IMG/VR virus record: IMGVR_UViG_3300028327_000833
Coordinates: 34,516 to 98,515 of that record
Strand: one strand, 5' to 3'
DNA from: a virus
Lineage: Duplodnaviria; Heunggongvirae; Uroviricota; Caudoviricetes
DNA: 64,000 nucleotides
Numbering within the stretch: position 1 is the stretch's first letter; each line of letters opens with the position of its first letter. A program made the position numbers and the translations under genes. Shown here piece after piece: positions 1 through 59,603 of this stretch. The notes below the pieces were generated by a model. It was not told the DNA's origin, did no database searches, and saw only the letters and a list, made by a program, of their open reading frames with translations.

Positions 1-103
1 CCTCCTCTACTGCGGTACGCGCCTGAAGTCGGGGTTTTGTCTCACAGTATCTAAAGATACTGAAGATCCGCGCGGTTTCGCAAGGATTAAATAGCGCCTC
101 GAT

Positions 104-136
104 AAATTTCGGTTGCGAATGGCGTACTGTAGTAGA
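104..136 (+). promoter_or_regulatory. conserved intergenic motif copy 1 (AAATTTCGG-N-GAA-N-GCGTACTGTAGTAG), putative phage promoter
   Basis: core GCGTACTGTAGTAG at 122-135; same 14-mer recurs 8x, always intergenic, always + strand. Confidence 0.55.
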
Positions 137-2557: not shown

Positions 2558-3869
2558 TTGAATGTCATGGACGTTTTCAAAAGCGCTGATGGAGAGCTAC
2601 GTGAACTCGCGCTGTTCGCGGGCGGAGGCGGCGGCATCCTCGGAGGAATCCTCTGCGGTTTCCGCACAGTATGCGCGGTTGAGGTCGATGCTTACTGCCG
2701 CGCTGTACTGTGCGCCCGACAAAATCAAGGAATACTCCCGCCTTTCCCGCTATGGGACGACATCCGCACCTTTGACGGACGCCCGTGGCGAGACGGTGTT
2801 GACGTGGTTTCTGCAGGATTCCCGTGCGTTGACATCAGTACAGCGAATCCGAAAGGCCGCGGACTCGCTGGAGAGAAGAGCGGATTATGGTTCGAGGCTC
2901 GGAGAGTTATCGGCGAAGTACGACCGCGATTCGTCGTCATTGAAAACAGCCCCAACATCGTTAATAAAGGCGGCGTCCGGGTTATTGCAGACCTTGCCGA
3001 AATGGGGTATGACGCGCAATGGGGAATTGTTTCGGCTGCCGACGCCGGAGCGCCTCACATCAGGAAGCGGTGGTGGTGCTTGGCCTACCCCCGACGCGAA
3101 GGGGTTTGTCGGGACGGGGGCGCTGAAAATGCTTGCGGAGAAAGCCTGCGACCGCGAGGAGTGGCTGGGGATGGCGACGCGGTCGGCGGTGTCGCGGAGG
3201 GAAGCCGTGTGGCCGACGCCTACGGTCAGAGAGTCGGAACCCCATGACGCTAAACTGACGCCGAACGGTCGGCGCATATCGAAAGACGGTAAGAGCGGCC
3301 ACAGTCTTAACCTTGCCGACACGGTAAGAATCGCCGAATCGCAAAATACGCTGTGGCCGACGCCTAACGTGCACGGGTTTACGAACGAAGGCTCCTTGAA
3401 AAAGCTAGCAAATGCGGTTGCTGACAAAGCGGAATACTCCGCGATGGCGTACCGCGCTGGTGCGAACATGAAAGACCGCCTCTGGCCGACACCGATGGCC
3501 AACGACGCGAAGAACCGCGCTAACGAAGGGCAGTTTAACCGCGTAACGGTGCCGCTGAATTGCGTAGTTGCTGAAAAACGCGGCGACGCGCTGAATCCTG
3601 ATTGGACAGAGTGGCTGATGGGATGGCCGTTGCATTGGACGCATTTATCGTCCGCAGACGCGCCGCGATACTTCGAGTGCTGGGAACAGCAGATGAAACG
3701 CGGCGAATGGTGGGACGCAGACCCGTCCGAGTCCGCTTTATGCGGAAGCATAATCCCGCGCGTTACGAACGATTCCACGAACCGTTGCAACAGGATCAGG
3801 CTTCTAGGCAACGGGCAGGTTCCGAAAGCCTTAGAGTTGTTCTGGAGATTGATGACTGACCATACCTAA
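2558..3869 (+). CDS. DNA (cytosine-5)-methyltransferase, split over two frames (frame A 2558-3247 carries motifs I/IV/VI/VIII; frame B continues from about 3088 to 3869 with motif X)
   Basis: LFAGGGG (motif I), GFPCVDIS (motif IV PC), VVIENSPN (ENV), APHIRKRWWCLAY (QxRxR) in frame A; RLLGNGQVPKALELFW (motif X) in frame B; frames join at the run of five C's, ~3090-3094. Confidence 0.65.
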
Positions 3870-3870
3870 T

Positions 3871-3903
3871 ATTTTTTCGTTGCAAAATGCGTACTGTAGT
3901 AGA
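3871..3903 (+). promoter_or_regulatory. conserved intergenic motif copy 2
   Basis: core GCGTACTGTAGTAG at 3889-3902 preceded by TTTTCGTTGCAAAAT. Confidence 0.55.
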
Positions 3904-4541: not shown

Positions 4542-5826
4542 GTATTTAATACATTTATAGGTTTTATTATCAAATATTGTTTTTTGTTATCAAATGTGTT
4601 ATCTTTGAGTTATGAAACTATCTAATTATGCTAAAAATCTCGGAATCTCTTAAAGGAACTTGAAAAATGAAGTTCAACAGAAGCGTCAAATGCCATTTCT
4701 CGAAGTGGATAACCGGAAGCAAGTCTGACCGTATAAAAGACTTGCTTTCTGAATATGACGCCGTAGCGACTTCGGCTATCGACGCTGTAAAAAGCCGTAT
4801 AGAAGACGGCGACTCTAAGTTCGACGTCTTTAAAAATTATAAAGTATCTGAAACGTGGCTGACAGCTAGAGCGAAACAAGTCGTTTTAGCTGAAACCTAC
4901 GGTATGGTAGACGGCCAGATTAAAAGTTGCAAAGAGTTAAAACAGCCGTATACGAAACCTAAACACTGCAAAACAAAAGCCGTTTTGTCGAGTCAGCTGG
5001 TATCTGTAAACCTTAACCCTGATTTAGAAGACTTTGATCTTCTAGTAGAGTTAAAATGTTTCGATAGCAGAAGGAAAGCGGTTAAAATAGCGATACCCTT
5101 GAAAAAGAACCGTTGTTTTGAAAAATGGAACTCTAAAGGCAAACTTTCAAGTTCCGTTATTTTAACGGATAAATATATCCAGTTTTCTTTTGAGGCTGAC
5201 GTCCCTAAGAAAACGGAAGGCGGCATTATAGGCTTAGACCCCGGAGCCACGAATCTTTTAACCTCTGACGAGGGCGTTGTTTACGGCGACCGGATAAAGC
5301 CGCTTTTACAGAAACTGAGACGTAAAAAACGCAATTCCAGATCTTGGAAGAAATGCAAAAAAGAAATTAAATACTATATCTCTAAAACATGTAAAGAGTT
5401 GCCTTTTAAGGAGACTAAATTAATTTGTATTGAAAATAACAGGGGTATTAAAAGGAACAGCAAAGTTAAAGGACGCTTAACTAAAAGTATGCGTTCAGTT
5501 CTCGACGGCTGGACAAGCGGGTTGCTGGACAGCAGGGTAGAAATGCTCTCGGAGGAAAACGGTGTTTCCCTCAGACGGGTGCCTGCTTTCCACAACTCCA
5601 CTACTTGTCCGGTCTGTGGTCACGTCGAGAAGGGGAACCGGTTAAGTCAAGAGGCGTTCAGGTGTCTGTCTTGTGACTATGCAGACAAAGCCGATACGGT
5701 CGGCGCCTTGAACACCCTTGGCCGCTTCTCCCTCGGAAAATATGGTTCCGGGTTCAAAACCGATTTTGTTAAAAAACATGGAGGCTACTATGCCTGCAAG
5801 ATTTGATAATAAAAGAGGTAACTATG
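4542..5826 (+). mobile_element. IS607-family derivative, copy 1 (tnpA deleted, tnpB intact)
   Basis: conserved left end GTATTTAATACATTTATAGGTTTTATTATC... and right end ...GCCTGCAAGATTTGATAATAAAAGAGGTAACTATG shared with copies at 7900 and 29279; 13-aa TnpA remnant MKLSNYAKNLGIS* at 4612-4653. Confidence 0.7.
4667..5806 (+). CDS. tnpB: TnpB (IS605 OrfB-family RuvC-like RNA-guided nuclease), 379 aa
   Basis: RuvC-I GLDPGATN, RuvC-II LICIENN, Zn finger CPVCGH...CLSC, RuvC-III YADKADTVGALN. Confidence 0.85.
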   Translation: MKFNRSVKCHFSKWITGSKSDRIKDLLSEYDAVATSAIDAVKSRIEDGDSKFDVFKNYKVSETWLTARAKQVVLAETYGMVDGQIKSCKELKQPYTKPKHCKTKAVLSSQLVSVNLNPDLEDFDLLVELKCFDSRRKAVKIAIPLKKNRCFEKWNSKGKLSSSVILTDKYIQFSFEADVPKKTEGGIIGLDPGATNLLTSDEGVVYGDRIKPLLQKLRRKKRNSRSWKKCKKEIKYYISKTCKELPFKETKLICIENNRGIKRNSKVKGRLTKSMRSVLDGWTSGLLDSRVEMLSEENGVSLRRVPAFHNSTTCPVCGHVEKGNRLSQEAFRCLSCDYADKADTVGALNTLGRFSLGKYGSGFKTDFVKKHGGYYACKI

Positions 5827-7899: not shown

Positions 7900-9184
7900 G
7901 TATTTAATGCATTTATAGGTTTTATTATCAAATATTGTTTTTTGTTATCGAATGTGTTAGCTTTGAGTTATGAAACTATACAGTCGGGCTAAAATTTTTA
8001 GACTCTCTTAAAGGAACTTGAAAAATGAAGTTCAACAGAAGCGTCAAATGTCATTTCTCGAAGTGGATAACCGGAAGCAAGTCTGACCGTATAAAAGACT
8101 TGCTTTCTGAGTATGACGCCGTAGCGACTTCGGCTATCGACGCTGTAAAAAACCGTATAGAAGACGGCGACACGAAGTTCGACGTCTTTAAAAATTACAA
8201 AGTACCGGAAACGTGGCTGACAGCTAGAGCGAAACAAGTCGTTTTAGCTGAAACCTACGGTATGGTAGACGGCCAGATTAAAAGTTGCAAAGAGTTAAAA
8301 CAGCCGTATACGAAACCTAAACACTGCAAAACAAAAGCCGTTTTGTCGAGTCAGCTGTTGTCTGTAAATCTTAACCCTCAATTAGAAGCGTTCGATCTTC
8401 TAGTGGAGTTAAAATGTTTCGATAGCAGACAGCGGGCGGTTAAAATAGCGGTACCTTTGAAAAAGAACCGCTGTTTTGAAAAATGGAACACTAAAGGCAA
8501 ACTCTCAAGTTCCGTTATTTTAACAGACAAATACATCCAGTTTTCTTTTGAGGCTGACGTCCCTAAGAAAACGGAAGGTGATATTATAGGTTTAGACCCC
8601 GGAGCCACGAACCTTTTAACCTCTGACGAGGGCGTTGTTTACGGCGACCTGATAAAGCCGCTTTTACAGAAACTGAAACGGAAAAAACGCAACTCAAGGT
8701 CGTGGAAAAAGTGTAAAAAAGAAATTAAATATTACGTCTCTAAAACATGTAAAGAATTGCCTTTTAAGGAGACTAAATTAATCTGTATTGAAAATAACAA
8801 GGGTATTAAACGGAACAGCAAAGTTAAAGGGCGCTTAACTAAAAATATGCGTTCAGTTCTCGACGGCTGGACAAGCGGGTTGCTGGACAGCAGGGTAGAA
8901 ATGCTTGCTGAAGAAAACGGTGTTTCCTTACGGCGGGTACCTGCTTTCCACAACTCTACTACTTGTCCGGTCTGCGGTCACGTTGAGAAGGGGAACCGGT
9001 TAAGTCAAGAGGCGTTCAGGTGTCTGTCTTGTGGCTATGCAGACAAAGCCGATATGGTCGGCGCCTTGAACACCCTTGGCCGCTTCTCCCTCGGAAAATA
9101 TGGTTCCGGGTTCAAAACCGATTTTGTTAAAAAACATGGAGGCTACTATGCCTGCAAGATTTGATAATAAAAGAGGTAACTATG
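7900..9184 (+). mobile_element. IS607-family derivative, copy 2 (tnpA deleted, tnpB intact)
   Basis: same ends and same tnpA deletion junction (..CTCTTAAAGGAACTTGAAAAATG) as copy 1. Confidence 0.7.
8025..9164 (+). CDS. tnpB: TnpB, 379 aa
   Basis: about 95% aa identity to 4667-5806; all RuvC and Zn-finger motifs intact. Confidence 0.85.
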   Translation: MKFNRSVKCHFSKWITGSKSDRIKDLLSEYDAVATSAIDAVKNRIEDGDTKFDVFKNYKVPETWLTARAKQVVLAETYGMVDGQIKSCKELKQPYTKPKHCKTKAVLSSQLLSVNLNPQLEAFDLLVELKCFDSRQRAVKIAVPLKKNRCFEKWNTKGKLSSSVILTDKYIQFSFEADVPKKTEGDIIGLDPGATNLLTSDEGVVYGDLIKPLLQKLKRKKRNSRSWKKCKKEIKYYVSKTCKELPFKETKLICIENNKGIKRNSKVKGRLTKNMRSVLDGWTSGLLDSRVEMLAEENGVSLRRVPAFHNSTTCPVCGHVEKGNRLSQEAFRCLSCGYADKADMVGALNTLGRFSLGKYGSGFKTDFVKKHGGYYACKI

Positions 9185-11353: not shown

Positions 11354-11390
11354 TGTTTTGACTAAGAATAATAAATTTTATAAAAAAAAA

Positions 11391-11418
11391 GTCAAAACGA
11401 GAAGCGTACTGTAGTAGA
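11391..11418 (+). promoter_or_regulatory. conserved intergenic motif copy 3
   Basis: core at 11404-11417; preceded by inverted repeat GTTTTGAC(11356-11363)/GTCAAAAC(11390-11397). Confidence 0.5.
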
Positions 11419-11465
11419 GGGCAGTATGCTTTTTTTTACAACTAATTTTGTCAGGAGGTTAAAAA

Positions 11466-12677: not shown

Positions 12678-13400
12678 ATGATACTCATACGGAAACCGGG
12701 GTCGGATCACATTTTACGGGACATCAACTGTCACGATATGGCGGTTACGATCCCTGTCGGAGGCCGAGAAATGAAATTGGTGATGGATGGGTGCGGCAGT
12801 ACGCCGTACCCAGACTCAGGCGTCAGACTCTTTGCGTATATGCTGTCGCAGAAGTTAATCGCCCGTAGCGATTGGGTTTTAACAAAAGGTGAGCCTCACG
12901 CCAACCTGAAAGCGGTTATTGCTACGGTATTTGAGAAAATATTGCAACTGCAATCAACAAAAAACGCTGACCAATTCATATTCGATTTTATGTTGTTCAC
13001 AATACTTATCGTCGTAGAGTTGCAAGATTCGTGGATGGTGCTGGCTTCAGGCGACGGTTACATCATAAGTCATGCGCATTGTGAAGACCGTATTGCTTTT
13101 GAGCCTCTTGACTGCGGCGAATTCCCTGCATATCAGGGGTACAATTATATTATCGACAAAAACAAACTGCTAAGTTATAAGGACGGGGTCGGGTGGCATT
13201 TAGACTATTATCCTAAAACCATATTCAAAAATGTCGGCGTAGCTTCGGACGGCATCCGTTTTTTGGTAAACTTGCCTGAGCATAACATTGAAAGACAGCG
13301 GTTCGTAGAATTCTTAAAAGAAGACAAATGCGGCAAAATTAAAATGCTGATCAACCGAAACCAGTCTTTACTTACCGATGACGTGAGCATCGTTTTTTAA
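12678..13400 (+). CDS. PP2C-like Ser/Thr phosphatase (putative)
   Basis: VMDGCGS (DGHGG-like), LASGDGY, C-terminal LTDDVSIVF (PP2C DDiTvivv motif). Confidence 0.5.
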   Translation: MILIRKPGSDHILRDINCHDMAVTIPVGGREMKLVMDGCGSTPYPDSGVRLFAYMLSQKLIARSDWVLTKGEPHANLKAVIATVFEKILQLQSTKNADQFIFDFMLFTILIVVELQDSWMVLASGDGYIISHAHCEDRIAFEPLDCGEFPAYQGYNYIIDKNKLLSYKDGVGWHLDYYPKTIFKNVGVASDGIRFLVNLPEHNIERQRFVEFLKEDKCGKIKMLINRNQSLLTDDVSIVF

Positions 13401-13413
13401 GGATACTAAGAAA

Positions 13414-15222
13414 ATGATTATCGAAAAAAGACAACTCAAGACGCTCATAGCTTGCGGCGGCGAAGCTGAAATTTATGAAGGCGATACCTCTGATACCGTG
13501 TTTAAGATCTTTCAAAAACACATAAATTTCGCCGTAAAAGAACAGAAAGTGAAAGCTCTGCTTCAGAGCGGTCGTTTTGCGTCTCCCGCGTCCCGCGTTG
13601 TCGCGCCGCTCGATATTCTGACCGACAAAAAAGGCGCGTTCGTCGGCTACAAAATGACCAAAATAACGGACGCTGAAGCCTTGCACCAGTTTACGAAGAC
13701 TAAGTTCTGCAATCTGCGGAAGATTACCAATCTCGACATCTTTAAGATATTGTGCGCTGTCGGCGAAGCACTGCAAACGATTATCCATAACGGAGCCGCG
13801 GCCGTTATCGGCGATTTAAACGATCACAACGTAGTCGTTAAAACCAGCGAAAAAGACTTCGGCAAAGCGGCGTTCTTCATCGACACCGACTCGTGGGGTA
13901 TCGGCAATCTTCCGCCTGACGCCTACACGGACGGTTTCGTGCCGTCCGAAGCCTACGGCAAAAAGATGTCCCTGACTCCGCTAACAGACAACTTCAGCTA
14001 CAACGTTATAGCTTGGAACCTGCTTACGAAGATTCATCCCTTCGGCGGGGTTTACAACGGGCATGACAATATGTCTGTTGTAGACAGAATCCACAAAGGC
14101 GCGTCCGTTTTGGGCAAACATAAGAAAGAAATCACGATACCTAAGATAATACAGTCATGGACGTGGATGTCTCCTGAACTTCAAGATTCGTTCAAAAAGT
14201 CTTTTGAGGACGGTCAGCGGGACACGGTTTATGAAATAATTCGCGATCAGTTGCAGAACTACCGCTATTGCAACGCTCACAACACCTACTTCTACGACAA
14301 GTACGGAACTTGCCCTCTTTGCAGCGGCAAAGCTAAGATAGCCGTCGCGGTCAAGAAAATATCTACAGGACAATTCGTTGTCACGGAAATCTTCTCCGCG
14401 CCTAATATCGATTTCTTTCTCGACTTCGATAAGTACGTTATCAAGGGTGTGGATCCGTCCGCGTTTATAAGGCACGTTCCGAGCGGCAGGACGATTCCTA
14501 GGGGCGATTACACGCAAGTCGAAATCATTGACGACGGTAATGTCCGTAACGACTGCTTCTTTTACGCAGATAAGATAATCATATCCGGCGATAATCTTGC
14601 AGAAATACCTCGGCAGCATAGATCGCCCTATCAAGTCGGCAAAAACACAATATGGTACATTAGCCCTGACGGTCAGTTGACGTCGTTAAAGTTGACCAAA
14701 GCTGGCAATGTGCAGACCGTTATTGTGCCGACTCACAACTCGCTGTTTTGCGCAAACGACTCTACAGGAGAAGTGTTTGTGTTGCAACGCTACCATCACA
14801 TGTCAATGATAACGCGGGTCTATAATACGTCTAACGGACATCAAACAAGCCTGACTAATGAGTTGCCGCCTATCGGCAGAATTGACGAGTATTTCATTCA
14901 AATGGACGCTATCGGGCGTACATGGGTCTTTATCTATAAAATGCCGAACGGCTTGTTCAGAACCCTGCTGTTTGACGCTCCCGGCGTAAAGGTTGACCGT
15001 ACAGATATACGGTATACTGCGGATTCCTTGAATAACATGTTCTACGTGAACAACACGGTTTACGACGCCGGCGACGGGAAGATTACCGCCACGAACCTAA
15101 TCAAGAACGCAGTAAAAGAATTTCCGTGCGCGGAGATAACAGAAAGCAGCAGACTTAGGTTTGTGGACGGACATTTCGAGTTTATTAGCGGGAACAAAAT
15201 ATACAAGATGGAAGTTGTTTAA
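13414..15222 (+). CDS. Ser/Thr protein kinase-like protein with long C-terminal extension (602 aa)
   Basis: Gly-loop GGEAEIYEG, VFKIF Lys, catalytic-loop-like IGDLNDHNVVV, DTDS (DFG-like); CPLCSG Zn ribbon. Confidence 0.5.
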   Translation: MIIEKRQLKTLIACGGEAEIYEGDTSDTVFKIFQKHINFAVKEQKVKALLQSGRFASPASRVVAPLDILTDKKGAFVGYKMTKITDAEALHQFTKTKFCNLRKITNLDIFKILCAVGEALQTIIHNGAAAVIGDLNDHNVVVKTSEKDFGKAAFFIDTDSWGIGNLPPDAYTDGFVPSEAYGKKMSLTPLTDNFSYNVIAWNLLTKIHPFGGVYNGHDNMSVVDRIHKGASVLGKHKKEITIPKIIQSWTWMSPELQDSFKKSFEDGQRDTVYEIIRDQLQNYRYCNAHNTYFYDKYGTCPLCSGKAKIAVAVKKISTGQFVVTEIFSAPNIDFFLDFDKYVIKGVDPSAFIRHVPSGRTIPRGDYTQVEIIDDGNVRNDCFFYADKIIISGDNLAEIPRQHRSPYQVGKNTIWYISPDGQLTSLKLTKAGNVQTVIVPTHNSLFCANDSTGEVFVLQRYHHMSMITRVYNTSNGHQTSLTNELPPIGRIDEYFIQMDAIGRTWVFIYKMPNGLFRTLLFDAPGVKVDRTDIRYTADSLNNMFYVNNTVYDAGDGKITATNLIKNAVKEFPCAEITESSRLRFVDGHFEFISGNKIYKMEVV

Positions 15223-16189: not shown

Positions 16190-16257
16190 CGCCGATCGGA
16201 ATGGCCGCGCCCTTCGCGGACGCGCGAGCCGAACAATTTATAGCAAACCGCCGATAA

Positions 16258-16288
16258 ATTTTGATTGCGGGAGGCGTACTGTAGTAGA
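16258..16288 (+). promoter_or_regulatory. conserved intergenic motif copy 4, followed by hairpin AGAGGG-N8-CCCTCT (16284-16303)
   Basis: core at 16274-16287. Confidence 0.55.
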
Positions 16289-16390
16289 GGGGGTGACTGC
16301 CCTCTAACTTGTTTTCATCCAGCGCGCGGCGGACGGCCTCTCGCCTGCCGTCTTTCGCCGCGCGTCTTTTAATCCACTAAATTAGGAGGG

Positions 16391-16879
16391 TTGGACATGC
16401 TGACAATCATAGCGTCGGCCGTTGTCTTGGCGGCCGTCGCCGCCGGAGATTACATACTGTGGCGGTATATGCGGCGGACGATAACCGCCCGGCTTGACGC
16501 CGCGAAAGCCGAGATTTTAGACGAAGCGCTGAAGCGCGGAAAAGCCTCCGCCGAGACGCTGGTCGCGGAAGTGCAGGGCATTCTGGATGCCGCGGCCAAA
16601 GATACGGAGGGTTTGCTCGAAGAGAGCGCGCAACAGCAGTCCAAGGCGATAGCGGCGGTCATTGCCGGGCAAAGCTCCGTAAACAAGGATCATAAAGCGA
16701 GGATCGAGGAACTGCTCGAACTGACGAGTCTCCACAGCAAGATCCTGAGATTCGACATGGCCGACGTTGCGGGAGGAGCGTCGACGGCCGCTATGCAGAA
16801 GCGTCCGCCGTCGGACAAAAGCAATCCCGCGGCAGGATCGGAATACGGCGATTTCCGGGGTGACTCGGGTTTATTGTAA
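16391..16879 (+). CDS. hypothetical membrane-anchored protein (162 aa)
   Basis: N-terminal hydrophobic helix; GGAGGG RBS. Confidence 0.4.
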   Translation: MDMLTIIASAVVLAAVAAGDYILWRYMRRTITARLDAAKAEILDEALKRGKASAETLVAEVQGILDAAAKDTEGLLEESAQQQSKAIAAVIAGQSSVNKDHKARIEELLELTSLHSKILRFDMADVAGGASTAAMQKRPPSDKSNPAAGSEYGDFRGDSGLL

Positions 16880-17654: not shown

Positions 17655-17743
17655 TCCGTATCCGGGGTGACGCCGTTATATTGAAAACAATACGTTGTTT
17701 GACAGCCATAACCACCTTTAGCCTGAAAGAGGAGGCAGTTGAA

Positions 17744-19442: not shown

Positions 19443-19515
19443 CGGTTCCGCATCCGGGGTGACTCCGTTATATTGTTTCCGTAAACGGAACGGTTGACTT
19501 TGACGGGGAGGTTTT

Positions 19516-23015: not shown

Positions 23016-23549
23016 ATGCCGGCCAAGAACAAACGCGGCCGCCCTGAAAAAGGCGTTGTAATGCGCATAGGGTGCTATAAGCGGGAGAAAGAAGCGACAG
23101 TGACCCGTCCTGAGTCTAAGAATTACGAGAAAGACTCTTTCGTGATGGATCGCCGTCTTACGGGTTTGCTCGGACGTACGCATTGGCGGCCTATGTCCAA
23201 GCGGTGGGATTACATCGTGAACGGCAACAAGGTCAGGCTCGCCGACTTGATTATGGAAACGCCTAAAGGCAAGCGCGTGCATTATATCGACGGCAACCCT
23301 AAGAATCTGTGCAAACGGAACTTGGCGTTGGTCGACCACGGCGAGCTTATGCACTTATGGAAGCGGAAACCTAACGTTACCGGGTATCGCGGAGTTTATG
23401 AATCCGGTTGCAAGTTCAGAGCGGAGATAAAGTACAACCGCAAGAACGTTTATTTGGGGACTTTTCCGACCAAGATACTGGCCGCGCAGGCCTACAACCG
23501 GGCGGCTCGAAAGTATTACGGAAGGCTCGCGGTTTTGAACAAGTTTTAA
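23016..23549 (+). CDS. HNH endonuclease with C-terminal AP2 DNA-binding domain (homing-endonuclease-like)
   Basis: HNH: HYIDGNPKNLCKRNLALVDH; AP2: YRGVYESGCKFRAEIKYNRKNVYLGTFPTKILAAQAYNRAARKYYG. Confidence 0.7.
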   Translation: MPAKNKRGRPEKGVVMRIGCYKREKEATVTRPESKNYEKDSFVMDRRLTGLLGRTHWRPMSKRWDYIVNGNKVRLADLIMETPKGKRVHYIDGNPKNLCKRNLALVDHGELMHLWKRKPNVTGYRGVYESGCKFRAEIKYNRKNVYLGTFPTKILAAQAYNRAARKYYGRLAVLNKF

Positions 23550-23606
23550 TTTAATCCAGGTGCGGCGGTATGCCTGAGAGGGGCGGCGGCGTTGAAAAAA
23601 TCGAAT

Positions 23607-24491
23607 ATGTCCGTTAGCGAAGACAAGAGTCTGGCGCTCTATTTCAAGGAGATAGGGGGCATTCAGCCGCTCACCTCCGAGCGCGAGGCGGAACTGGCCG
23701 CCAAAATCAAGCGCGGCGACCGTAAAGCCGTGCACGCGCTTGTAAAGGCCAACTTGCGCTTCGCGGTCAGCGTGGCCCGCAACTATCAGAATCAGGGGCT
23801 TTCCCTTAGCGATCTGATAAACGAAGGGAATATAGGGCTCGTCAAGGCGGCCGAACGGTTCGACGGAACGAAGAACTTCCGCTTCATTTCCTACGCCGTA
23901 TGGTGGATCAGGCAGACCATTCTGCAGGCGCTGGCGGATCATTCGCGGGGTATGCGTCTGCCGCTTAACCGCGTCGGGGCGATACATAAGATAAATAAGG
24001 CGCAAATCGACCTTGAACAACGTCTCAACCGTATGCCCGACACCGCCGAACTCGCCCGCGAACTGTCGATGACGGAGACCGGCGTCGCGGACGCGTTGGC
24101 GATGGCGGACAGCTGCAGTTCGCTCGACGCGCCTATGGCCGACGGCGGCTCCCCGCATATAAGCGGACTGGCGGACATATCGGCCGTCAACGGGCCGGAC
24201 GAGATACAGGCGAAATCCACGCACGAAGAACTCGAACGGATACTTGAGTGCCTGTCCGACCGCGAGCGGGAAGTCGTCAAAATGTCGTACGGCGTAGACT
24301 GCGACGCGGGTTACACTTTGGAAGAGATAGGGCGTAAATTGAAACTTACGCGGGAGCGGGTGCGGCAGATAAAAGACAAGGCGATGCGTCAGTTAAGGAG
24401 CTCTCAGGGCGTGGATCAGCCGGTGCGCAAGCGGAGGCCTAAAGCGGGTTCGCGCGACAGATCGTGCAATGCGTCGAAAGGCAAGGTCTGA
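23607..24491 (+). CDS. RNA polymerase sigma factor, sigma-70 family
   Basis: region 2 FRFISYAVWWIRQTI; region 4.2 HTH TLEEIGRKLKLTRERVRQIKDKAMRQLR. Confidence 0.8.
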   Translation: MSVSEDKSLALYFKEIGGIQPLTSEREAELAAKIKRGDRKAVHALVKANLRFAVSVARNYQNQGLSLSDLINEGNIGLVKAAERFDGTKNFRFISYAVWWIRQTILQALADHSRGMRLPLNRVGAIHKINKAQIDLEQRLNRMPDTAELARELSMTETGVADALAMADSCSSLDAPMADGGSPHISGLADISAVNGPDEIQAKSTHEELERILECLSDREREVVKMSYGVDCDAGYTLEEIGRKLKLTRERVRQIKDKAMRQLRSSQGVDQPVRKRRPKAGSRDRSCNASKGKV

Positions 24492-28093: not shown

Positions 28094-28102
28094 CCGAAAG
28101 AA

Positions 28103-28135
28103 AAATTTCGGCACCGAATAGCGTACTGTAGTAGA
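28103..28135 (+). promoter_or_regulatory. conserved intergenic motif copy 5, followed by perfect 10-bp hairpin GAGACTCCGT-GCAGAT-ACGGAGTCTC (28146-28171)
   Basis: core at 28121-28134. Confidence 0.55.
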
Positions 28136-28221
28136 AGCGTTTCGCGAGACTCCGTGCAGATACGGAGTCTCCTGATCTAACGCAATAACGAACCACAATC
28201 TATCCCTATGAGGCAACCGTT

Positions 28222-29346: not shown

Positions 29347-29904
29347 ATGAAACTATCTAATTATGCTAAAAATCTCGGAATCTCTTATTTGACCGCGTAC
29401 AGGCACTACAAAGCAAATAAGATTAAAGGCGCTTATCAGCTAGAGTCTGGGACAGTAATTGTTCCAGACTTAAATTCCGTAAGTAAACCTGACTATACTG
29501 TTATTTACAGCAGAGTCAGTTCGTCTGAAAATAAAAGCAACCTGGAGAGCCAGGCAGAGAGGCTTATGCAATTCTGTAATGCAAAAGGGTGGGTTGTTAA
29601 AGAAGTTATAAAAGAATGCGCATCAAGGTTAAACGATAACCGCCCTAAATTATTGAAGTTATTTAAGGAGAGGCGGGCAACTAGACTCGTGGTGGAGCAT
29701 AAAGACCGCCTAACCAGGTTTGGATTTAATTACATAAAAGAACTTTATAACGAGTGTGAAATTGTAATTTTAAATGAAGCTGAAAATCGAAATGATTTAA
29801 TGCAAGACTTTGTTTCGTTAGTAACCTCTTTTTGCGCTATGTTATATGGACAACGAAGGACAAAACGACAGACAGAAAAGTTAATCAAGGAACTTGAAAA
29901 ATGA
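29347..29904 (+). CDS. tnpA: IS607-family TnpA, serine recombinase with N-terminal MerR-like HTH
   Basis: catalytic serine motif VIYSRVSSSENKSNLESQ; 185 aa. Confidence 0.8.
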   Translation: MKLSNYAKNLGISYLTAYRHYKANKIKGAYQLESGTVIVPDLNSVSKPDYTVIYSRVSSSENKSNLESQAERLMQFCNAKGWVVKEVIKECASRLNDNRPKLLKLFKERRATRLVVEHKDRLTRFGFNYIKELYNECEIVILNEAENRNDLMQDFVSLVTSFCAMLYGQRRTKRQTEKLIKELEK

Positions 29905-31040
29905 AGTTCAACAGAAGCGTCAAATGCCACTTCTCGAAGTGGATAACCGGAAGCAAGTCCGGCCGTATAAAAGACTTGCTTTCTGAGTATGACGCCGTAG
30001 CGACTTCGGCTATAGACGGTATAAAAAACCGCATAGAAGACGGCGACTCTAAGTTCGACGTCTTTAAAAATTACAAAGTACCGGAAACGTGGCTGACGGC
30101 CAGAGCGAAACAAGTCGTTTTAGCCGAAACCTACGGCGTGGTAGACGGCCAGATTAAAAGTTGCAAAGAGTTAAAACAGCCGTATACGAAACCTAAACAC
30201 TGCAAAACAAAAGCCGTTTTGTCGAGTCAGCTGGTATCTGTAAACCTTAACCCTGATTTAGAAGACTTTGATCTTCTAGTAGAGTTAAAATGTTTCGACA
30301 GCAGAAGGAAAGCGGTTAAAATAGCGATACCCTTGAAAAAGAACCGTTGTTTTGAAAAATGGAACACTAAAGGCAAACTTTCAAGTTCCGTTATTTTAAC
30401 GGATAAATATATCCAGTTTTCGTTTGAGGCTGATGTCCCTAAGAAAACGGAAGGTGGCATTCTAGGCTTAGACCCCGGAGCCACGAATCTTTTAACATCA
30501 GACGAGGGCGTTGTTTACGGCGACCGTATAAAGCCGCTTTTACAGAAACTTAAACGTAAAAAACGCAACTCAAGGTCGTGGAAAAAATGTAAAAAAGAGA
30601 TTAAATATTACATTTCTAAAACATGTAAAGAGTTGCCTTTTAAAGAAACTAAATTAATCTGTATTGAAAATAACAAGGATATTAAAAGAAACAGCAAAGT
30701 TAAAGGACGCTTAACTAAAAATATGCGTTCAGTTCTCGACGGCTGGACAAGCGGGTTGCTGGACAGCAGGGTAGAAATGCTCTCAGAGGAAAACGGTGTT
30801 TCCCTCAGACGAGTGCCTGCTTTCCACAACTCCACTACTTGTCCGGTCTGCGGTCACGTCGAGAAGGGGAACCGGTTAAGTCAAGAGGCGTTCAGGTGTC
30901 TGTCTTGTGGCTATGCAGACAAAGCCGATATGGTCGGCGCTTTAAACGTCCTTGGCCGCTTCTCCCTCGGAAAATATGGTTCCGGGTTCAAAACCGAGTT
31001 TGTTAAAAAACATGCAGGTTATTACGCCTGCAAGATTTGA
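29901..31040 (+). CDS. tnpB: TnpB, 379 aa
   Basis: GLDPGATN, LICIENN, CPVCGH..CLSCGY, ADKADMVGALN. Confidence 0.85.
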   Translation: MKFNRSVKCHFSKWITGSKSGRIKDLLSEYDAVATSAIDGIKNRIEDGDSKFDVFKNYKVPETWLTARAKQVVLAETYGVVDGQIKSCKELKQPYTKPKHCKTKAVLSSQLVSVNLNPDLEDFDLLVELKCFDSRRKAVKIAIPLKKNRCFEKWNTKGKLSSSVILTDKYIQFSFEADVPKKTEGGILGLDPGATNLLTSDEGVVYGDRIKPLLQKLKRKKRNSRSWKKCKKEIKYYISKTCKELPFKETKLICIENNKDIKRNSKVKGRLTKNMRSVLDGWTSGLLDSRVEMLSEENGVSLRRVPAFHNSTTCPVCGHVEKGNRLSQEAFRCLSCGYADKADMVGALNVLGRFSLGKYGSGFKTEFVKKHAGYYACKI

Positions 31041-32475: not shown

Positions 32476-32640
32476 GTGATTGAAGAGCTGAGCAAAAGTT
32501 GTCCGAATCACGTGAAGAACGAAATTAACGCGACGTTTGCCAAGAACGTAGTGAATCCTGACTTTACGGATAACTGCAACAAGCTGGCGAAACAAGCGGC
32601 AGGCAGAGTCAAACAACCTAAAGGCGAAGGACGGCTATGA
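32476..32640 (+). CDS. small hypothetical protein (GTG start)
   Basis: GGGGGA RBS; overlaps pncB start by ATGA. Confidence 0.3.
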   Translation: MIEELSKSCPNHVKNEINATFAKNVVNPDFTDNCNKLAKQAAGRVKQPKGEGRL

Positions 32641-33845
32641 TTATCACATCGCTGTTAGACTGCGATCTGTACAAATTTAGCATGGGAGCCGCGTATTTTG
32701 ACGGGTTTGCCAATACTACTGCGCGGTTTGTGTTCAAAGACCGTACTAATAAAATCCCAGTTACCGAGTTATTTATCGAAAGGCTCGGGCGCGAGGTCGA
32801 TTCGTTATGCAAGTTGAAATTCAGTACCGAAGAGTTAGATTATCTTTTCGGACTTAGATTTATGAAAGATAAGGTCGGGTATAGGGAATATTTGCGGAAC
32901 TTCCGACTCAATCCCGATTGGATTCATATTTACGGAGTAAATGACGGCGGCAAACTTGCGGCGGTAGAGATTCATACAGCAGAAGCCCCGCTGATAGCCG
33001 TCAGTATGTTTGAAATTTATATCCTTGCAATCGTGAACGAGTTGTATTGCCAGGATAACAACGTGTACCCTCCTCGGTATGAGCGCCAACTTGCGGAGGA
33101 CACTGCGAAGCGGTTTGATGCGCTCGAATGCCCTTTCATCGAAATGGGTACGCGAAGGCGAATATCGGGAAGTTTTCAAGATAAACTAATTGGCGAGTTA
33201 AAAAAGAATTCTAAATTTCTGGGGACAAGCAATGTTTATCTTGCGATGAAGCACGGCGTAACCCCAAGCGGGACGCAAGCTCACGAGTATTTGTGTACCG
33301 GGCAAGGACTTCCTCATGTGCCCGTAGCCGACAGTCAGCGGTATATGTTCGATTTCTGGGCGCGACACTTCAACGGGGACTTGGGCATAGCCTTGTCGGA
33401 TAATCTAGGCACGGACAAGTTTTTGGAAGACTTCACTTGCTACTATGCCAAACTGTTCGACGGTGTCAGACATGACTCAGGTGACCCGTTCGTATGGGGC
33501 GAGCAGATGATTAAAATGTACGAGGGTTACGGGATCGACCCGAAATCCAAAAAATTGGTATTCAGCGACAGTCTATCTCTGGAAAAGGCCAACGCTATCT
33601 ACCGCAAATTTAAGGATAGAGTCAAAGTTGTAGCTGGAATCGGGACGGCGTTGACGAATCCGATCAAGGATAAGGCGACCAATATCGTGATGAAGATGGT
33701 CAGTTGCAACGGGCGGCCTGTGGCTAAGTTATCAAACAACCCAGGCAAACAAATGTGCGAGAATGCCGATTATGTGCGTTATTTGAAACAGGTGGTTAAG
33801 TTCAATGACAGCTACGAACTGTCCGAAGAGGATGGCTGGGAATAA
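32637..33845 (+). CDS. pncB: nicotinate phosphoribosyltransferase (PncB)
   Basis: blocks GTRRRISGSF, GTSNVYLAMKHGVTPSGTQAHE, LGIALSD, GVRHDSGDPFVWGE, LVFSDSL, GIGTALTN, NIVMKMVSCNGRPVAKLSNNPGK align to E. coli PncB. Confidence 0.85.
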   Translation: MIITSLLDCDLYKFSMGAAYFDGFANTTARFVFKDRTNKIPVTELFIERLGREVDSLCKLKFSTEELDYLFGLRFMKDKVGYREYLRNFRLNPDWIHIYGVNDGGKLAAVEIHTAEAPLIAVSMFEIYILAIVNELYCQDNNVYPPRYERQLAEDTAKRFDALECPFIEMGTRRRISGSFQDKLIGELKKNSKFLGTSNVYLAMKHGVTPSGTQAHEYLCTGQGLPHVPVADSQRYMFDFWARHFNGDLGIALSDNLGTDKFLEDFTCYYAKLFDGVRHDSGDPFVWGEQMIKMYEGYGIDPKSKKLVFSDSLSLEKANAIYRKFKDRVKVVAGIGTALTNPIKDKATNIVMKMVSCNGRPVAKLSNNPGKQMCENADYVRYLKQVVKFNDSYELSEEDGWE

Positions 33846-33947
33846 ACTTTTAACCTTCTAAGGAGGGCGTTATGAGTGAACATAAGAAGCCTGGCGAGGT
33901 TCTTACTGAAGCCGAGGCGGGTTTTATCAGCGCAACGGAGGGAAAAA

Positions 33948-36504: not shown

Positions 36505-36509
36505 GCGTC

Positions 36510-36540
36510 TAATTTCGGGGTCAATTTAGCGTACTATTGC
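36510..36540 (+). promoter_or_regulatory. degenerate copy of conserved motif (AATTTCGGGGTCAATTTAGCGTACT|ATTGCC), truncated at the cassette junction
   Basis: 26/30 identical to 37262-37291 up to GCGTACT, then diverges. Confidence 0.5.
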
Positions 36541-36576
36541 CACTTGCGGTTTGGTGTTACATGAAGGGCTTTCTAT

Positions 36577-37233: not shown

Positions 37234-37261
37234 TAGGGAGACGTAAGGCTGAGCGCATAAT

Positions 37262-37291
37262 TTCAAGGTCAATTTAACGTACTGTAGTAGG
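37262..37291 (+). promoter_or_regulatory. conserved intergenic motif copy 6 (core ACGTACTGTAGTAG)
   Basis: core at 37277-37290; GGAGG RBS follows. Confidence 0.5.
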
Positions 37292-37320
37292 AGGCTGTTA
37301 TATGAACGACGGAGGTTTAA

Positions 37321-37488
37321 ATGGCGATAACGGTTAAAATGGGCGGCCTCGACTTGGCGGACTATATGCCGGAAGTGGTGGCGGATTTGGAAGCTCGAAT
37401 GGCGCAAACGGATGCAGAGTATGAACGCTTGCGCGCGCAGGGATTAAGCGAAGAGGAAGCAATTAGAACGCTCAATGAGGAGGATTAG
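37321..37488 (+). CDS. small hypothetical protein (55 aa)
   Basis: ORF after motif and RBS. Confidence 0.3.
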   Translation: MAITVKMGGLDLADYMPEVVADLEARMAQTDAEYERLRAQGLSEEEAIRTLNEED

Positions 37489-42428: not shown

Positions 42429-42435
42429 ATTACAT

Positions 42436-42510: not shown

Positions 42511-42530
42511 CCGCGATAAAGGAGGACGCT

Positions 42531-43215: not shown

Positions 43216-43220
43216 TTTTT

Positions 43221-43405: not shown

Positions 43406-43441
43406 AATATTTTTCGGTGTCGAAAGGCGTACTGTAGTAGG
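43406..43441 (+). promoter_or_regulatory. conserved intergenic motif copy 7, followed by nested hairpins 43441-43495
   Basis: core at 43427-43440. Confidence 0.55.
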
Positions 43442-46950: not shown

Positions 46951-47219
46951 GCGATTACATAAAATTGGACGTCCGAATTAACGGGACATGCAAAGCCGCG
47001 ACGTCCGACGAGGTCGGGTCATGCGACGGTTTCCGCGAAGGCCGAAGCGACGGAGGCAAACGCAGGTGCGCACACCGTCGCAACAACGGCGTCTATTGGA
47101 CGTGCGACCGGTACGCGCCGCTGATAGATTCGGCGAAGGACTATCTTGAACGTCTTTTCAAGCAATATCCGCCGAATAAGGATGGAGCGTCGGATCGCGT
47201 CTTCGAAAACTATAAATAA
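46947..47219 (+). CDS. hypothetical protein (90 aa)
   Basis: ATGA overlap. Confidence 0.35.
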   Translation: MSDYIKLDVRINGTCKAATSDEVGSCDGFREGRSDGGKRRCAHRRNNGVYWTCDRYAPLIDSAKDYLERLFKQYPPNKDGASDRVFENYK

Positions 47220-47250
47220 ATTTTGACGGCGAAAGGCGTACTGTAGTAGG
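47214..47250 (+). promoter_or_regulatory. conserved intergenic motif copy 8
   Basis: core at 47236-47249. Confidence 0.55.
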
Positions 47251-59530: not shown

Positions 59531-59603
59531 TTCCTAAAGATAGCGAAATACCTGAAAATTTACAACCGTTGTATTTTTTGCAAATTTTCGCTATATTTAT
59601 AAC
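59531..59603. promoter_or_regulatory. divergent promoter/operator region
   Basis: 9-bp inverted repeat ATAGCGAAA(59540-48)/TTTCGCTAT(59586-94) enclosing palindrome ACAACCGTTGT; AT-rich. Confidence 0.5.

What the first reader, a model, noticed from the sequence alone, without database searches (positions are those of the whole stretch)
104..136. A 14-bp core motif with conserved upstream arm, GCGTACTGTAGTAG, recurs 8 times in + strand intergenic regions: candidate phage-specific promoter
Exact core copies lie at 122, 3889, 11404, 16274, 28121, 43427 and 47236. A copy with ACGTACTGTAGTAG is at 37277, and a truncated copy sits at 36510-36540. Most share an upstream arm (A)ATTT(T)CGG-N3-5-GAA-N-G. 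All are on the coding strand, in gaps after gene ends, 30-130 nt upstream of the next start codon. Three (16274, 28121, 43427) are followed within 15 nt by stable hairpins. The motif does not fit a sigma-70 -35/-10 spacing. It may be read by the phage-encoded sigma factor (23607-24491) or another phage-directed polymerase specificity. No reverse-complement copy occurs in the - strand module, so that module uses different signals.
Basis: seen in the sequence. Interest (0 to 1): 0.6.

Follow-up and report, generated by a model that had tools for sequence, protein, structure and literature searches.

The report
Phage-specific promoter cassette, unknown reader
A 34-base signal repeated in front of the non-structural gene blocks of an uncultured termite-gut phage is most likely that phage's own promoter type, which is an ordinary kind of feature, although the factor that reads it was not found.

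Summary
GCGTACTGTAGTAG occurs 7 times exactly and once with one mismatch. All copies are on the + strand and all are intergenic (0.2 expected by chance).

The copies align without gaps into a 34-nt cassette: an A-rich block (ATAAATTT), 12 nt, then the 14-mer and R-N-G-G.

DNA just beyond the window holds three more copies. One is on the minus strand, in front of a minus-strand gene and back-to-back with a plus-strand copy. Orientation therefore follows the gene, as for a promoter.

Two related phages carry the same layout with different cores. Only the A-block and CGTA(C/T)T are shared, so these are the likely -35-like and -10-like elements.

Terminator hairpins that straddle the core, and ribosome-binding sites that abut it, place the inferred start at the 3' end of the core.

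The layout matches sigma-28 promoters (TAAAGTTT-n11-GCCGATAA), but the -10 sequence differs.

The window's sigma factor is a near copy of the host's primary sigma (Fibrobacterota type). It more plausibly reads a second, host-type promoter class (TTG-N19-20-TAnnTTTA), found at the structural genes, tRNA clusters and IS ends.

No other sigma or polymerase was found in about 83 kb. No transcription start was mapped.

The parts
102..135 (+). Class I cassette 1: A-block ATAAATTT at 102-109, core at 122-135. It lies in a divergent gap at the head of the + strand block (92-aa gene, helicase, methylase-like gene).
3869..3902 (+). Class I cassette 2: ATATTTTT, core at 3889-3902. The A-block overlaps the stop codon of the preceding gene. 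It is 38 nt before the ATG at 3941.
11384..11417 (+). Class I cassette 3: AAAAAAAG, core at 11404-11417. It is 48 nt before the ATG at 11466.
11399..11437 (+). Intrinsic terminator that straddles cassette 3. The 5' arm is 11399-11412 (this includes core bases 1-9), the 3' arm is 11421-11434 and the T8 run is 11430-11437. It would stop transcripts coming from thyX. Transcripts that start at the end of the core would lack the 5' arm.
   Evidence: dG -17.8, z -5.3, 0/200 shuffles
16254..16287 (+). Class I cassette 4: ATAAATTT, core at 16274-16287. It is 109 nt before the gene start at 16397.
16283..16371 (+). Two hairpins after cassette 4. The first (16283-16309) has a weak stem that uses the last core bases, and a T-rich tail. 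The second (16322-16365) is a strong stem followed by TCTTTT.
   Evidence: (whole 102 nt: dG -42.4, z -3.1)
28101..28134 (+). Class I cassette 5: AAAAATTT, core at 28121-28134. It is 87 nt before the ATG at 28222.
28137..28183 (+). Stable hairpin in the presumed 5' leader after cassette 5. It has no T run.
   Evidence: dG -25.8, z -3.1
36509..36542 (+). Subtype-2 cassette: CTAATTTC, core GCGTACTATTGCCA. It is 35 nt before the ATG at 36577. The same subtype (CCGTACTATTACTG) occurs in relative L301.
37257..37290 (+). Class I cassette 6: ATAATTTC, core ACGTACTGTAGTAG at 37277-37290. A ribosome-binding site (GAGG) follows immediately.
43407..43440 (+). Class I cassette 7: ATATTTTT, core at 43427-43440. 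It comes after a tRNA cluster and is 71 nt before the ATG at 43512.
47216..47249 (+). Class I cassette 8: ATAAATTT, core at 47236-47249. It heads a 457-nt non-coding stretch (tRNA-like pieces, T9 run near 47371, tRNA-Ile) before the Ro60 gene.
7..40 (-). Degenerate minus-strand copy: core GCGTACCGCAGTAG at 20->7, A-block ACAAAACC. It sits directly before AGGAGG and the ATG of a 183-aa gene that begins just left of the window. It lies downstream of a host-type promoter at 83->52.
23592..24491 (+). RpoD-type sigma factor lacking region 1.1, closest to Chitinispirillales and Fibrobacter chromosomal sigmas. It is the only sigma found and is probably not the reader of this motif.
59535..59599 (.). 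Contrast class, not part of the family. These are back-to-back host-type (class II) promoters: TTGTAAATTTTCAGGTATTTCGCTATCTTTA on the minus strand (59565->59535) and TTGTATTTTTTGCAAATTTTCGCTATATTTA on the plus strand (59569-59599). Each ends 5 nt before an ATG, at the head of the structural modules.
52..83 (-). Contrast class: host-type promoter TTGCGAAACCGCGCGGATCTTCAGTATCTTTA for the left-edge minus-strand operon. Its -7 box overlaps the palindrome CAGTATCTaaAGATACTG (45-62).

Best explanation
The 14-mer is the downstream half of a 34-38-nt promoter cassette ('class I'). The phage uses it to start transcription of its non-structural gene blocks: replication, nucleotide and NAD metabolism, kinase/phosphatase, regulators, tRNAs and Ro60.

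Anatomy, numbering the core 1-14:
- an A-rich -35-like block, A(T/A)AAA(T/C)TT, at -20 to -13;
- an 11-12-nt spacer with a weak CGAAA;
- a -10-like element, (G/C)CGTA(C/T)T, at core positions 1-7;
- a phage-specific stretch, GTAGTAG, followed by a purine.

Inferred steps:
- Transcription starts within the last bases of the core or the next two nucleotides.
- The cassette is read by the host core RNA polymerase carrying a specificity factor other than the primary-type sigma. This would be an alternative sigma of group 3/4 style, or an unrecognised phage protein.
- That factor is probably made early from host-type promoters.
- The window's RpoD-like sigma, or the host's own, reads the separate host-type class II promoters at the structural genes.
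- At some sites an intrinsic terminator is wrapped around the start point. Transcripts from upstream then stop, while transcripts born in the hairpin loop escape.

Shown: recurrence, location, orientation, layout, conservation in relatives, and the hairpins.
For: 1. Non-random and intergenic. There are 8 copies against 0.2 expected. All lie in the 11.6% non-coding DNA and partition the 51-kb + block into units of 3.6-12 kb.

2. Orientation follows the gene. L305 is identical to the window over 62489-64000. It holds copies at 16278(+), 12 nt before an ATG, and 18912(+), 13 nt before an ATG. It also holds GCGTACTGTAGTAT on the minus strand at 16224, before a minus-strand methylase gene and back-to-back with 16278(+) in a 133-nt divergent gap. 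The 7-20(-) variant likewise precedes a minus-strand gene.

3. Fixed bipartite layout.

4. Conservation in relatives found through the helicase, at 81% and 72% identity.
- L301 has CCGTACTGTAGTA (26/33 ungapped identity to copy 47236) and CCGTACTATTACTG.
- L300 has three CCGTATTA(C/G)... copies.
- Every copy has the A-block starting 20 nt upstream.
- Only the A-block and CGTA(C/T)T are common to all.

5. Bounds on the start site.
- Terminators in window 11399-11437 and L301:348-397 (z -5.3 and -5.8) have their 5' arm inside or upstream of the core.
- Ribosome-binding sites begin 0-3 nt after the core in four copies.

6. The layout equals the sigma-28 consensus TAAAGTTT-n11-GCCGATAA (PMC2859248). 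It is close to the PvdS box TAAAT-N16-CGT (PMC6037834). A CGT -10 box marks ECF-type promoters in Flavobacterium (PMC9723704).

7. A distinct host-type class exists, so this motif is a separate class. TTG-N18-21-TAnnTTT[GA] gives 13 matches against 3.9 +/- 2.0 expected, 8 of them intergenic. The same type lies upstream of genes in host contig L181 and at two further structural-gene gaps.
Against: - No transcription start has been mapped. Everything about initiation is inference.
- No reader was found. Apart from the RpoD-like protein, there is no sigma or RNA polymerase in about 83 kb.
- The 14 invariant bases, including the stretch between the -10-like element and the start, are more than a sigma normally needs. 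This may mean a second function or recent copying.
- Copy 16274 is followed by a strong terminator that its own transcripts would meet.
- The -10-like element fails the sigma-28 consensus (3/8). The spacer is one base short of the PvdS box.
- The relatives are few and short: five copies in 9.8 kb.
Confidence: 0.68

Rival explanations
1. Composite element. The A-rich block is the real promoter element (a -10/-7 box read by a host-type or T4-gp55-like factor). Transcription starts about 5 nt after it. The invariant 14-mer is then a transcribed leader that works as RNA or as non-template DNA, for example as a pause, antitermination or stability signal.
For: - ATAAATTT contains TAnnTTT, the Bacteroidota-type -7 box placed at -12 to -5 (PMC9723704). 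It also contains ATAAAT as in T4 late promoters (own knowledge).
- In copy 11404 a perfect ATAAATTTT lies 12 nt further upstream than usual.
- The 7-20(-) variant lies 31 nt downstream of a host-type promoter.
- Terminator-like structures follow several copies, as expected for an antitermination leader.
- Invariance of 14 bases suits a specific binding site.
Against: - Ten of 18 A-blocks lack the T of the TA (AAAAATTT, AAAAACTT, AAAAAAAG). Genuine host-type boxes here are TATCTTTA or TATATTTA.
- No TTG lies at the -33 position.
- With a start about 7 nt before the core, copies 11404 and L301:359 would terminate their own transcripts in strong terminators.
- No NusG/RfaH-like or Q-like protein was found.
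- The 3' half of the core differs between related phages, while the spacing to the A-block is kept.
Confidence: 0.12
2. Operator. The cassette is the binding site of a phage DNA-binding regulator, for example the multi-HTH protein encoded just after copy L305:16278. It overlaps otherwise unremarkable promoters and switches the whole non-structural regulon on or off.
For: - A 295-aa protein with several HTH motifs lies directly behind a cassette. It has a homologue (26% identity, E 2e-18) next to the helicase in relative L300.
- A long asymmetric invariant site suits a multi-domain binder.
- No dedicated sigma was found.
Against: - No recognisable host-type promoter accompanies most copies.
- The conserved parts sit exactly at the -35 and -10 positions relative to the inferred start.
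- There is no dyad symmetry. The apparent small inverted repeat in the arm is no better than shuffled controls (62% against 60% paired).
Confidence: 0.1
3. RNA processing or stability site. The motif acts in polycistronic RNA as a cleavage or protection signal between cistrons.
For: - It lies between genes, often with no terminator upstream.
- Hairpins follow some copies. In T7, RNase III sites follow promoters in a similar way (own knowledge).
Against: - Copies 122 and L305:16278/16224 lie in divergent gaps where no upstream transcript of that strand is expected.
- No common RNA structure exists. The motif sits in a stem, in a loop or outside the hairpin in different copies.
- A fixed A-block 20 nt upstream is not explained.
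Confidence: 0.06
4. A DNA-level signal unrelated to expression: a strand-specific nick site as in T5, phiKMV or tf, or a selfish REP/MITE-like repeat.
For: - Inside the window all copies are on one strand.
- TACTGT is shared with the tf nick consensus TACT/RTGMC (PMC3517423).
Against: - Minus-strand copies exist and follow gene direction.
- All copies are intergenic, although 88% of the DNA is coding.
- Flanks are not repeated and there is no palindrome.
- The motif is absent from IMG/VR and GTDB genomes as a multi-copy element.
Confidence: 0.03

Closest known systems
Sigma-28 (FliA/WhiG/SigD) promoters, TAAAGTTT-n11-GCCGATAA
   Same: The layout is the same 8-n11-8: (A)TAAATTT(C/T)-n11-GCGTACTG. 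The -35 half matches at 6-7 of 8 positions. There are 15 nt between TAAA and the downstream octamer. The inferred start lies about 7 nt after the octamer.
   Different: The -10 half matches at only 3 of 8 positions. The CGA core is replaced by CGTA. The window, L079 and the tested ORFs of L305 yielded no FliA-type sigma (one search covered window, L079, L300, L301; seven L305 ORFs). The genes served are phage replication and metabolism genes, not flagellar genes. The motif is invariant for a further 6 bases.
ECF (group 4) sigma promoters, e.g. the PvdS iron-starvation box TAAAT-N16-CGT, and the CGT -10 box of Flavobacterium ECF-type promoters
   Same: TAAAT plus CGT separated by about 1.5 helical turns. 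CGTA is the only core segment invariant across three related phages.
   Different: The spacer is 15 nt, not 16. The usual AAC of ECF -35 elements is absent in the window copies (AAAAAC occurs only in relatives). No ECF sigma gene was detected.
Phage-specific promoter classes read through phage-directed changes of host RNA polymerase (T4 middle and late, SPO1 gp28 and gp33/34, phiEco32 gp36; own knowledge)
   Same: A short, highly conserved sequence unlike host promoters is repeated at the heads of one temporal or functional set of genes. It coexists with host-type promoters in the same genome.
   Different: Here the specificity factor is unidentified. The only phage sigma present looks host-like. 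Temporal class is not known.
T7-type single-subunit polymerase promoters followed by RNase III hairpins (own knowledge)
   Same: A long invariant block runs up to the start site, purines follow it, and hairpins follow some copies.
   Different: No single-subunit polymerase gene was found among the called and six-frame ORFs searched in ~83 kb (no ORF above 1116 aa; Pfam hits listed). Between related phages the part next to the start varies while the upstream part is conserved, which is the opposite of T7/T3/SP6. The additional A-block 20 nt upstream has no counterpart.
Bacteroidota/FCB primary-sigma promoters, TTG-N19-21-TAnnTTTG
   Same: These occur in the same genome (class II) and in host contigs. 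The A-block superficially contains TAnnTTT.
   Different: The motif lacks TTG at -33. TACTGTAG matches the -7 box at 4 of 6 positions. Half of the A-blocks lack the T of the TA.

Membership tests
Promoter (transcription initiation signal) of a phage-specific class | Conserved sequence over-represented and confined to non-coding DNA upstream of genes | tested here: met
   8 copies against 0.2 expected. All are in the 11.6% non-coding DNA, 30-130 nt before starts. Three more lie outside the window.
Promoter (transcription initiation signal) of a phage-specific class | Orientation follows the direction of the downstream gene, including divergent pairs | tested here: met
   L305:16224(-) and 16278(+) are back-to-back in a divergent gap. 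The 7-20(-) copy precedes a minus-strand gene.
Promoter (transcription initiation signal) of a phage-specific class | Primary transcript 5' ends map next to the motif | not testable with these tools
   Only indirect bounds are available, from straddling terminators and abutting ribosome-binding sites.
Promoter (transcription initiation signal) of a phage-specific class | A cognate specificity factor (sigma or polymerase) is encoded or available | tested here: inconclusive
   Only an RpoD-like sigma was found in ~83 kb. The rest of the genome (a contig of 204,996 bases is on record) could not be read.
Sigma-28/FliA-type promoter | -35 TAAA(GTTT), with 15 nt between TAAA and the -10 octamer | tested here: met
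   TAAATTTY-n11-octamer in the window copies, compared with the consensus in PMC2859248.
Sigma-28/FliA-type promoter | -10 GCCGATAA (CGA core) | tested here: not met
   GCGTACTG matches at 3 of 8 positions. Relatives have CCGTAYT.
Sigma-28/FliA-type promoter | Dependence on a FliA-family sigma | not testable with these tools
   None is encoded in the DNA read. Host flagellar promoters could not be examined.
ECF-sigma promoter | -10 CGT box | tested here: met
   CGTA is invariant in all 14 aligned copies of three phages.
ECF-sigma promoter | -35 with AAC, and a 16-17-nt spacer | tested here: inconclusive
   Window copies have TAAAT, not AAC. AAAAAC occurs in L300 and L301. The spacer from TAAAT to CGT is 15 nt.
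Host primary-sigma (FCB-type) promoter | TTG at -33 and TAnnTTTG at -12 to -5 | tested here: not met
   No TTG lies at the required distance. The core matches the -7 box at 4 of 6 positions. Genuine examples elsewhere in the phage and host look different.
T7-like single-subunit polymerase promoter | Phage-encoded single-subunit polymerase, and a promoter conserved around the start across relatives | tested here: not met
   No such gene was found in ~83 kb. The start-proximal half varies between relatives.
Strand-specific nick sites (T5, phiKMV, tf) | All sites on one DNA strand irrespective of gene direction | tested here: not met
   Minus-strand copies precede minus-strand genes. Literature: PMC3517423.
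Intrinsic terminator | G+C-rich hairpin followed by a U run at each copy | tested here: not met
   Present only at 11404, partly at 16274, and at L301:359. Absent at the other copies.
Structured RNA motif | Conserved base-paired structure with covariation | tested here: not met
   The arm helix is 62% paired against 60% in shuffles, with no excess covariation. There is no Rfam match at any copy.

The most novel reading that the evidence does not exclude
The cassette may be read by something that is not a recognisable phage sigma. One possibility is the host's flagellar-type sigma: the layout is that of sigma-28 promoters and the phage carries a fliM-like gene, so the phage's whole non-structural programme would be tied to the host's motility state. 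The other is a new kind of phage specificity factor, with promoters deliberately built inside terminator loops as insulating start/stop units.
Probability: 0.15. Interest if true: 0.65.

Novelty: new member of a known kind. Interest (0 to 1): 0.4.

Why it matters
Conserved phage-specific promoters are common, so the finding is not surprising in kind. Its use is practical.

- It gives the likely transcription-unit map of an uncultured phage of at least 83 kb (a contig of 204,996 bases is on record). The phage probably infects termite-gut Fibrobacterota (TG3/Chitinispirillia), a group with no phage transcription data.
- It separates two promoter classes: a phage-specific one and a host-type one.
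This points to a missing specificity factor.
- The start points inferred inside terminator loops, and the sigma-28-like layout, are testable details that could be of wider interest.

Tried and rejected
- Scans for the 14-mer. IMG/VR gave 78 single chance hits. GTDB genomes with a stricter pattern gave one chance hit. These scans yielded no relatives.
- Megablast of 25 kb against cultured phages found nothing. tblastn of the helicase found only relatives below 28% identity.
- Relatives sought in IMG/VR through the sigma factor gave 80 jumbo-phage loci at 39-51% identity. None has the cassette.
- Searches through the helicase, a putative capsid gene and the gene after copy 28121 gave nothing useful.
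- The small inverted repeat in the arm (TTTCG-N4-CGAAA) is rejected. Pairing is no better than in shuffled or slid controls.
- A common downstream RNA structure is rejected. Folds after 47236, 43427, 3889, 122 and 37277 are no better than shuffles.
- The minus-strand hit at 63707 is rejected because it lies in a coding 3' end.
- Sigma-54, primary sigma-70 and FCB readings of the core were considered and rejected on spacing or sequence.
- Search for a second sigma or polymerase: Pfam, PHROGs and NCBIfam on about 70 proteins, plus a sigma profile against all six-frame ORFs of window, L079, L300 and L301. Nothing was found.
- The 183-aa product of the left-edge early-looking operon has 3 homologues and no domains. 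Its AlphaFold model was too poor to use (pLDDT 59), so no fold search was run.
- Distant relatives L302 and L303 (GC 30-35%) lack the motif.

Full report
**1.

GCGTACTGTAGTAG occurs exactly at 122, 3889, 11404, 16274, 28121, 43427 and 47236. It occurs with one mismatch (ACGTACTGTAGTAG) at 37277. All copies are on the + strand. At <=2 mismatches, 0.20 +/- 0.45 matches are expected by chance, and 0 of 100 shuffles reach the observed number.

With a gene list built from the ORFs and from the gene calls of public contigs, 88.4% of the window is coding. All eight copies lie in the remaining 11.6%. Anchored on the 14-mer, the flanks align without gaps:
- an A-rich block, consensus ATAAATTT, starts 20 nt upstream, with A invariant at -20 and -18;
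- a weaker CGAAA lies at -6 to -2;
- the base after the core is a purine in 8 of 8 copies, followed by N-G-G.

The eight copies cut the 51-kb + strand block into units of 3.6-12 kb. Distances to the next start codon are 30-130 nt. The exception is 47236, which heads a 457-nt non-coding stretch before the Ro60 gene.

**2. What the window is**

It is part of a large uncultured phage. Genes identified:
- a UvsW-like helicase, several DNA methylases, ThyX and an NAD-dependent ligase;
- a PP2C phosphatase and a kinase-like protein;
- an NAD salvage cluster, a Clp_N protein, a FliM-like protein and a Ro60/TROVE protein;
- five to seven tRNAs and three TnpB copies;
- a minus-strand structural module, a gp53-like baseplate protein and a VanY-type lysin.

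The same DNA occurs in termite-gut metagenomes (JGI 3300002119 and ENA assemblies). Those contigs break at the TnpB repeats. It has no close relative among cultured phages, IMG/VR or GTDB genomes.

**3. The sigma factor is host-like**

The product of 23592-24491 has regions 1.2, 2, 3 and 4 and scores as RpoD/RpoS-type. Its nearest relatives (60-68% identity) are about 280-aa RpoD/SigA proteins of Chitinispirillales and Fibrobacter. Two that I looked up sit in ordinary bacterial chromosomal contexts, one beside dnaA and dnaN.

The DNA-contact segments are nearly unchanged:
- region 2.4: YAVWWIRQ(T/A)ILQ;
- region 4.2: TRERVRQIK.

The host is therefore probably a member of Fibrobacterota. The phage sigma should recognise what the host's primary sigma recognises.

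**4. Host-type promoters exist, and they differ from the motif**

The pattern TTG-N18-21-TAnnTTT[GA] is the Bacteroidota-type primary-sigma promoter, with its -7 box at -12 to -5 (PMC9723704). It occurs 13 times against 3.9 +/- 2.0 in shuffles, and 8 of the 13 are intergenic. The sites are:
- the left ends of the three TnpB elements;
- upstream of two tRNA groups;
- upstream of the left-edge minus-strand operon (83->52);
- back-to-back in the divergent gap 59531-59603, each 5 nt before an ATG.

Two more lie in gaps of the next minus-strand structural block. They share the extended form TTTCG(C/T)TATCTTTA. The same type lies just upstream of the host sigma gene and in a divergent gap of host contig L181.

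This is a second promoter class (class II).

The finding's motif (class I) does not fit this type:
- no TTG lies at the -33 position;
- TACTGTAG matches the -7 box at 4 of 6 specified positions;
- half of the A-blocks lack the T of the TA.

**5. Orientation follows the gene**

L305 continues the window to about 72.9 kb and is identical to it over 62489-64000. It holds three further copies:
- ACGTACTGTAGTAG at 16278(+), with a perfect ATAAATTT block, 12 nt before the ATG of a multi-HTH protein;
- an exact core at 18912(+), 13 nt before an ATG, with its A-block inside the preceding gene;
- GCGTACTGTAGTAT on the minus strand at 16224, upstream of a minus-strand methylase gene and back-to-back with the 16278 copy in a 133-nt divergent gap.

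The 2-mismatch copy at 7-20(-) likewise sits just before AGGAGG and the ATG of a minus-strand gene. This removes explanations that need a single strand, such as nick sites as in phage tf (PMC3517423), or either orientation, such as REP-like repeats.

**6. Relatives keep the layout but not the sequence**

Helicase homologues led to two short contigs of related phages.
- L301 (helicase 81% identical) has CCGTACTGTAGTA at its end. It matches copy 47236 at 26 of 33 ungapped positions.
- L301 also has CCGTACTATTACTG, which resembles the window's 'truncated' copy GCGTACTATTGCCA. That copy is therefore a second subtype, not a wreck.
- L300 (72% identical) has three copies of CCGTATTA(C/G)nAnTwAAG.

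In all five copies an A-rich block (AAAAACTT, AAAAAATT, GTAAATTT) starts 20 nt upstream of the core. Across the 14 aligned copies, only the A-block and CGTA(C/T)T are shared. A pattern for this layout occurs nowhere else in 3.2 Mb of fetched DNA beyond chance, including 80 jumbo-phage loci with related sigma genes. More distant relatives (helicase 43-48% identical, GC 30-35%) lack it. One of them, L303, has a different intergenic repeat of its own.

**7. Where transcription would start (inference)**

Two canonical intrinsic terminators straddle the core:
- window 11399-11437 (dG -17.8, z -5.3, U8), where core bases 1-9 are part of the 5' arm;
- L301:348-397 (dG -20.0, z -5.8, U9), where the 5' arm lies in the spacer and the core lies in the loop.

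A weaker hairpin at 16283-16309 uses the last core bases. If transcription begins at the 3' end of the core, incoming transcripts are stopped, while the cassette's own transcripts lack the 5' arm.

Conversely, in four copies the ribosome-binding site begins 0-3 nt after the core (37277, L305:16278, L305:18912 and 7-20(-)). The start therefore cannot lie further downstream.

Together these place the start within core positions 10-14 or the next two bases. That puts CGTACT at about -12 to -7 and the A-block at about -34 to -27, which is the geometry of a bipartite bacterial promoter.

**8. Comparison with known promoter types**

- Sigma-28. The layout TAAATTT(C/T)-n11-GCGTACTG is that of the consensus TAAAGTTT-n11-GCCGATAA (PMC2859248; PMC8325347). 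The -35 half matches at 6-7 of 8 positions, but the -10 half at only 3 of 8.
- PvdS box. The motif also resembles TAAAT-N16-CGT (PMC6037834), with a 15-nt spacer.
- ECF type. It shares the CGT -10 box of ECF-type promoters.

It therefore works like an alternative-sigma promoter but is not a member of either family.

No such sigma, and no phage polymerase, was found in about 83 kb. The best-placed candidate is the 183-aa product of an operon with a host-type promoter at the left edge. It has no domains, and its structure model was unusable.

**9. Rivals**

- A promoter in the A-block with the 14-mer as a transcribed leader is the main alternative (0.12). The displaced ATAAATTTT at 11404 and the downstream terminators favour it. 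The poor TA conservation and the self-termination it implies at two copies count against it.
- An operator for the conserved multi-HTH protein (0.10).
- An RNA processing site (0.06).
- Non-expression DNA signals (0.03).

No common RNA structure exists. The arm helix is at chance level, downstream folds are mostly at chance level, and there are no Rfam hits at the copies.

**10. Verdict**

This is a real phage-lineage-specific promoter-type cassette. It is ordinary in kind and well defined in anatomy, but its reader is unidentified. The suggested link to the window's sigma factor is unlikely.

Noticed in passing
window 59535-59599; 52-83(-); 42106-42136; 47515-47546; L305:14593(-), 15345(-): A second, host-type promoter class, TTG-N19-20-TAnnTTTA (extended form TTTCGCTATCTTTA). 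It lies at the heads of the structural modules, the tRNA groups and the left-edge operon. The same type lies upstream of genes in host-like contig L181.
   Followed up: yes
window 4667-5806, 8025-9164, 29901-31040 (TnpB); 29347-29904 (resolvase): Three TnpB (Cas12f-like TNB domain) copies, one paired with a serine-recombinase TnpA (IS607-like). Their shared left ends carry a host-type promoter at 4577, 7935 and 29312. Public assemblies of this phage break at these repeats.
   Followed up: partly
window 47250-49560: A Ro60/TROVE homologue (47707-49560) is preceded by tRNA-Ile(UAU), tRNA-like fragments and a ~125-nt stretch ending in a T9 run. These are candidate Y-RNA-like partners. There is no Rfam Y RNA match, and the fold is no better than shuffles.
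   Followed up: partly
window 23592-24491; L181, L182: The phage sigma is 60-68% identical to short (~280 aa, no region 1.1) primary-type sigmas of Chitinispirillales and Fibrobacter. This suggests a Fibrobacterota (TG3) host and recent capture of a host gene. An HNH endonuclease gene (23016-23549) lies directly upstream.
   Followed up: yes
window 44502-45377: A FliM-like protein (flagellar motor switch family; weak but specific hits) is encoded by the phage.
   Followed up: no
window 12678-15222: An adjacent PP2C-type phosphatase (12678-13400) and a protein-kinase-like gene (13414-15222).
   Followed up: no
window 32637-38400: An NAD cluster: nicotinate phosphoribosyltransferase, NAD synthase, an NMN adenylyltransferase/Nudix protein and an isochorismatase-like (nicotinamidase-type) protein.
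   Followed up: no
window 16288-16305, 16854-16869, ~17660-17685, 19455-19467: A family of small terminator-like hairpins with the same loop, (C/G)GGGGTGAC(T/G)CC, followed by GTTATATTG or a T-rich tail.
   Followed up: no
window 45-62: A perfect palindrome, CAGTATCT-AA-AGATACTG, overlaps the -7 box of the host-type promoter of the left-edge minus-strand operon. It looks like an operator.
   Followed up: no
window 42357-42512, 43220-43392, 46218-46290, 47594-47662, 49878-49952: Dispersed tRNA genes: Met, Gly, Ser, Ile and Arg by ARAGORN, one more at 46218-46290 by Rfam only, and a weak tRNA-like hit at 43309-43392. Further T-arm-like fragments lie in the 45.9, 46.2 and 47.4 kb gaps.
   Followed up: partly
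L305:16304-17191; L300:368-1315: A conserved protein with several HTH motifs and repeated GxxFGR...CxCDCG motifs lies directly behind a class I cassette. It is found in this phage and in a relative (26% identity, E 2e-18). It is a candidate regulator.
   Followed up: partly
L303:~3000 and ~3340: A distant relative (GC 35%) has its own intergenic repeat, CCACTTTACTTTAAC, upstream of two consecutive genes, and a hairpin CGTACCGTA-GAAA-TACGGTACG at 9291.
   Followed up: no
L079:1126-4476: Upstream of the window, the phage DNA polymerase A gene (1116 aa) carries a faint precomputed Pfam Intein_splicing hit, suggesting an intein. NrdD and a Toprim primase follow.
   Followed up: no
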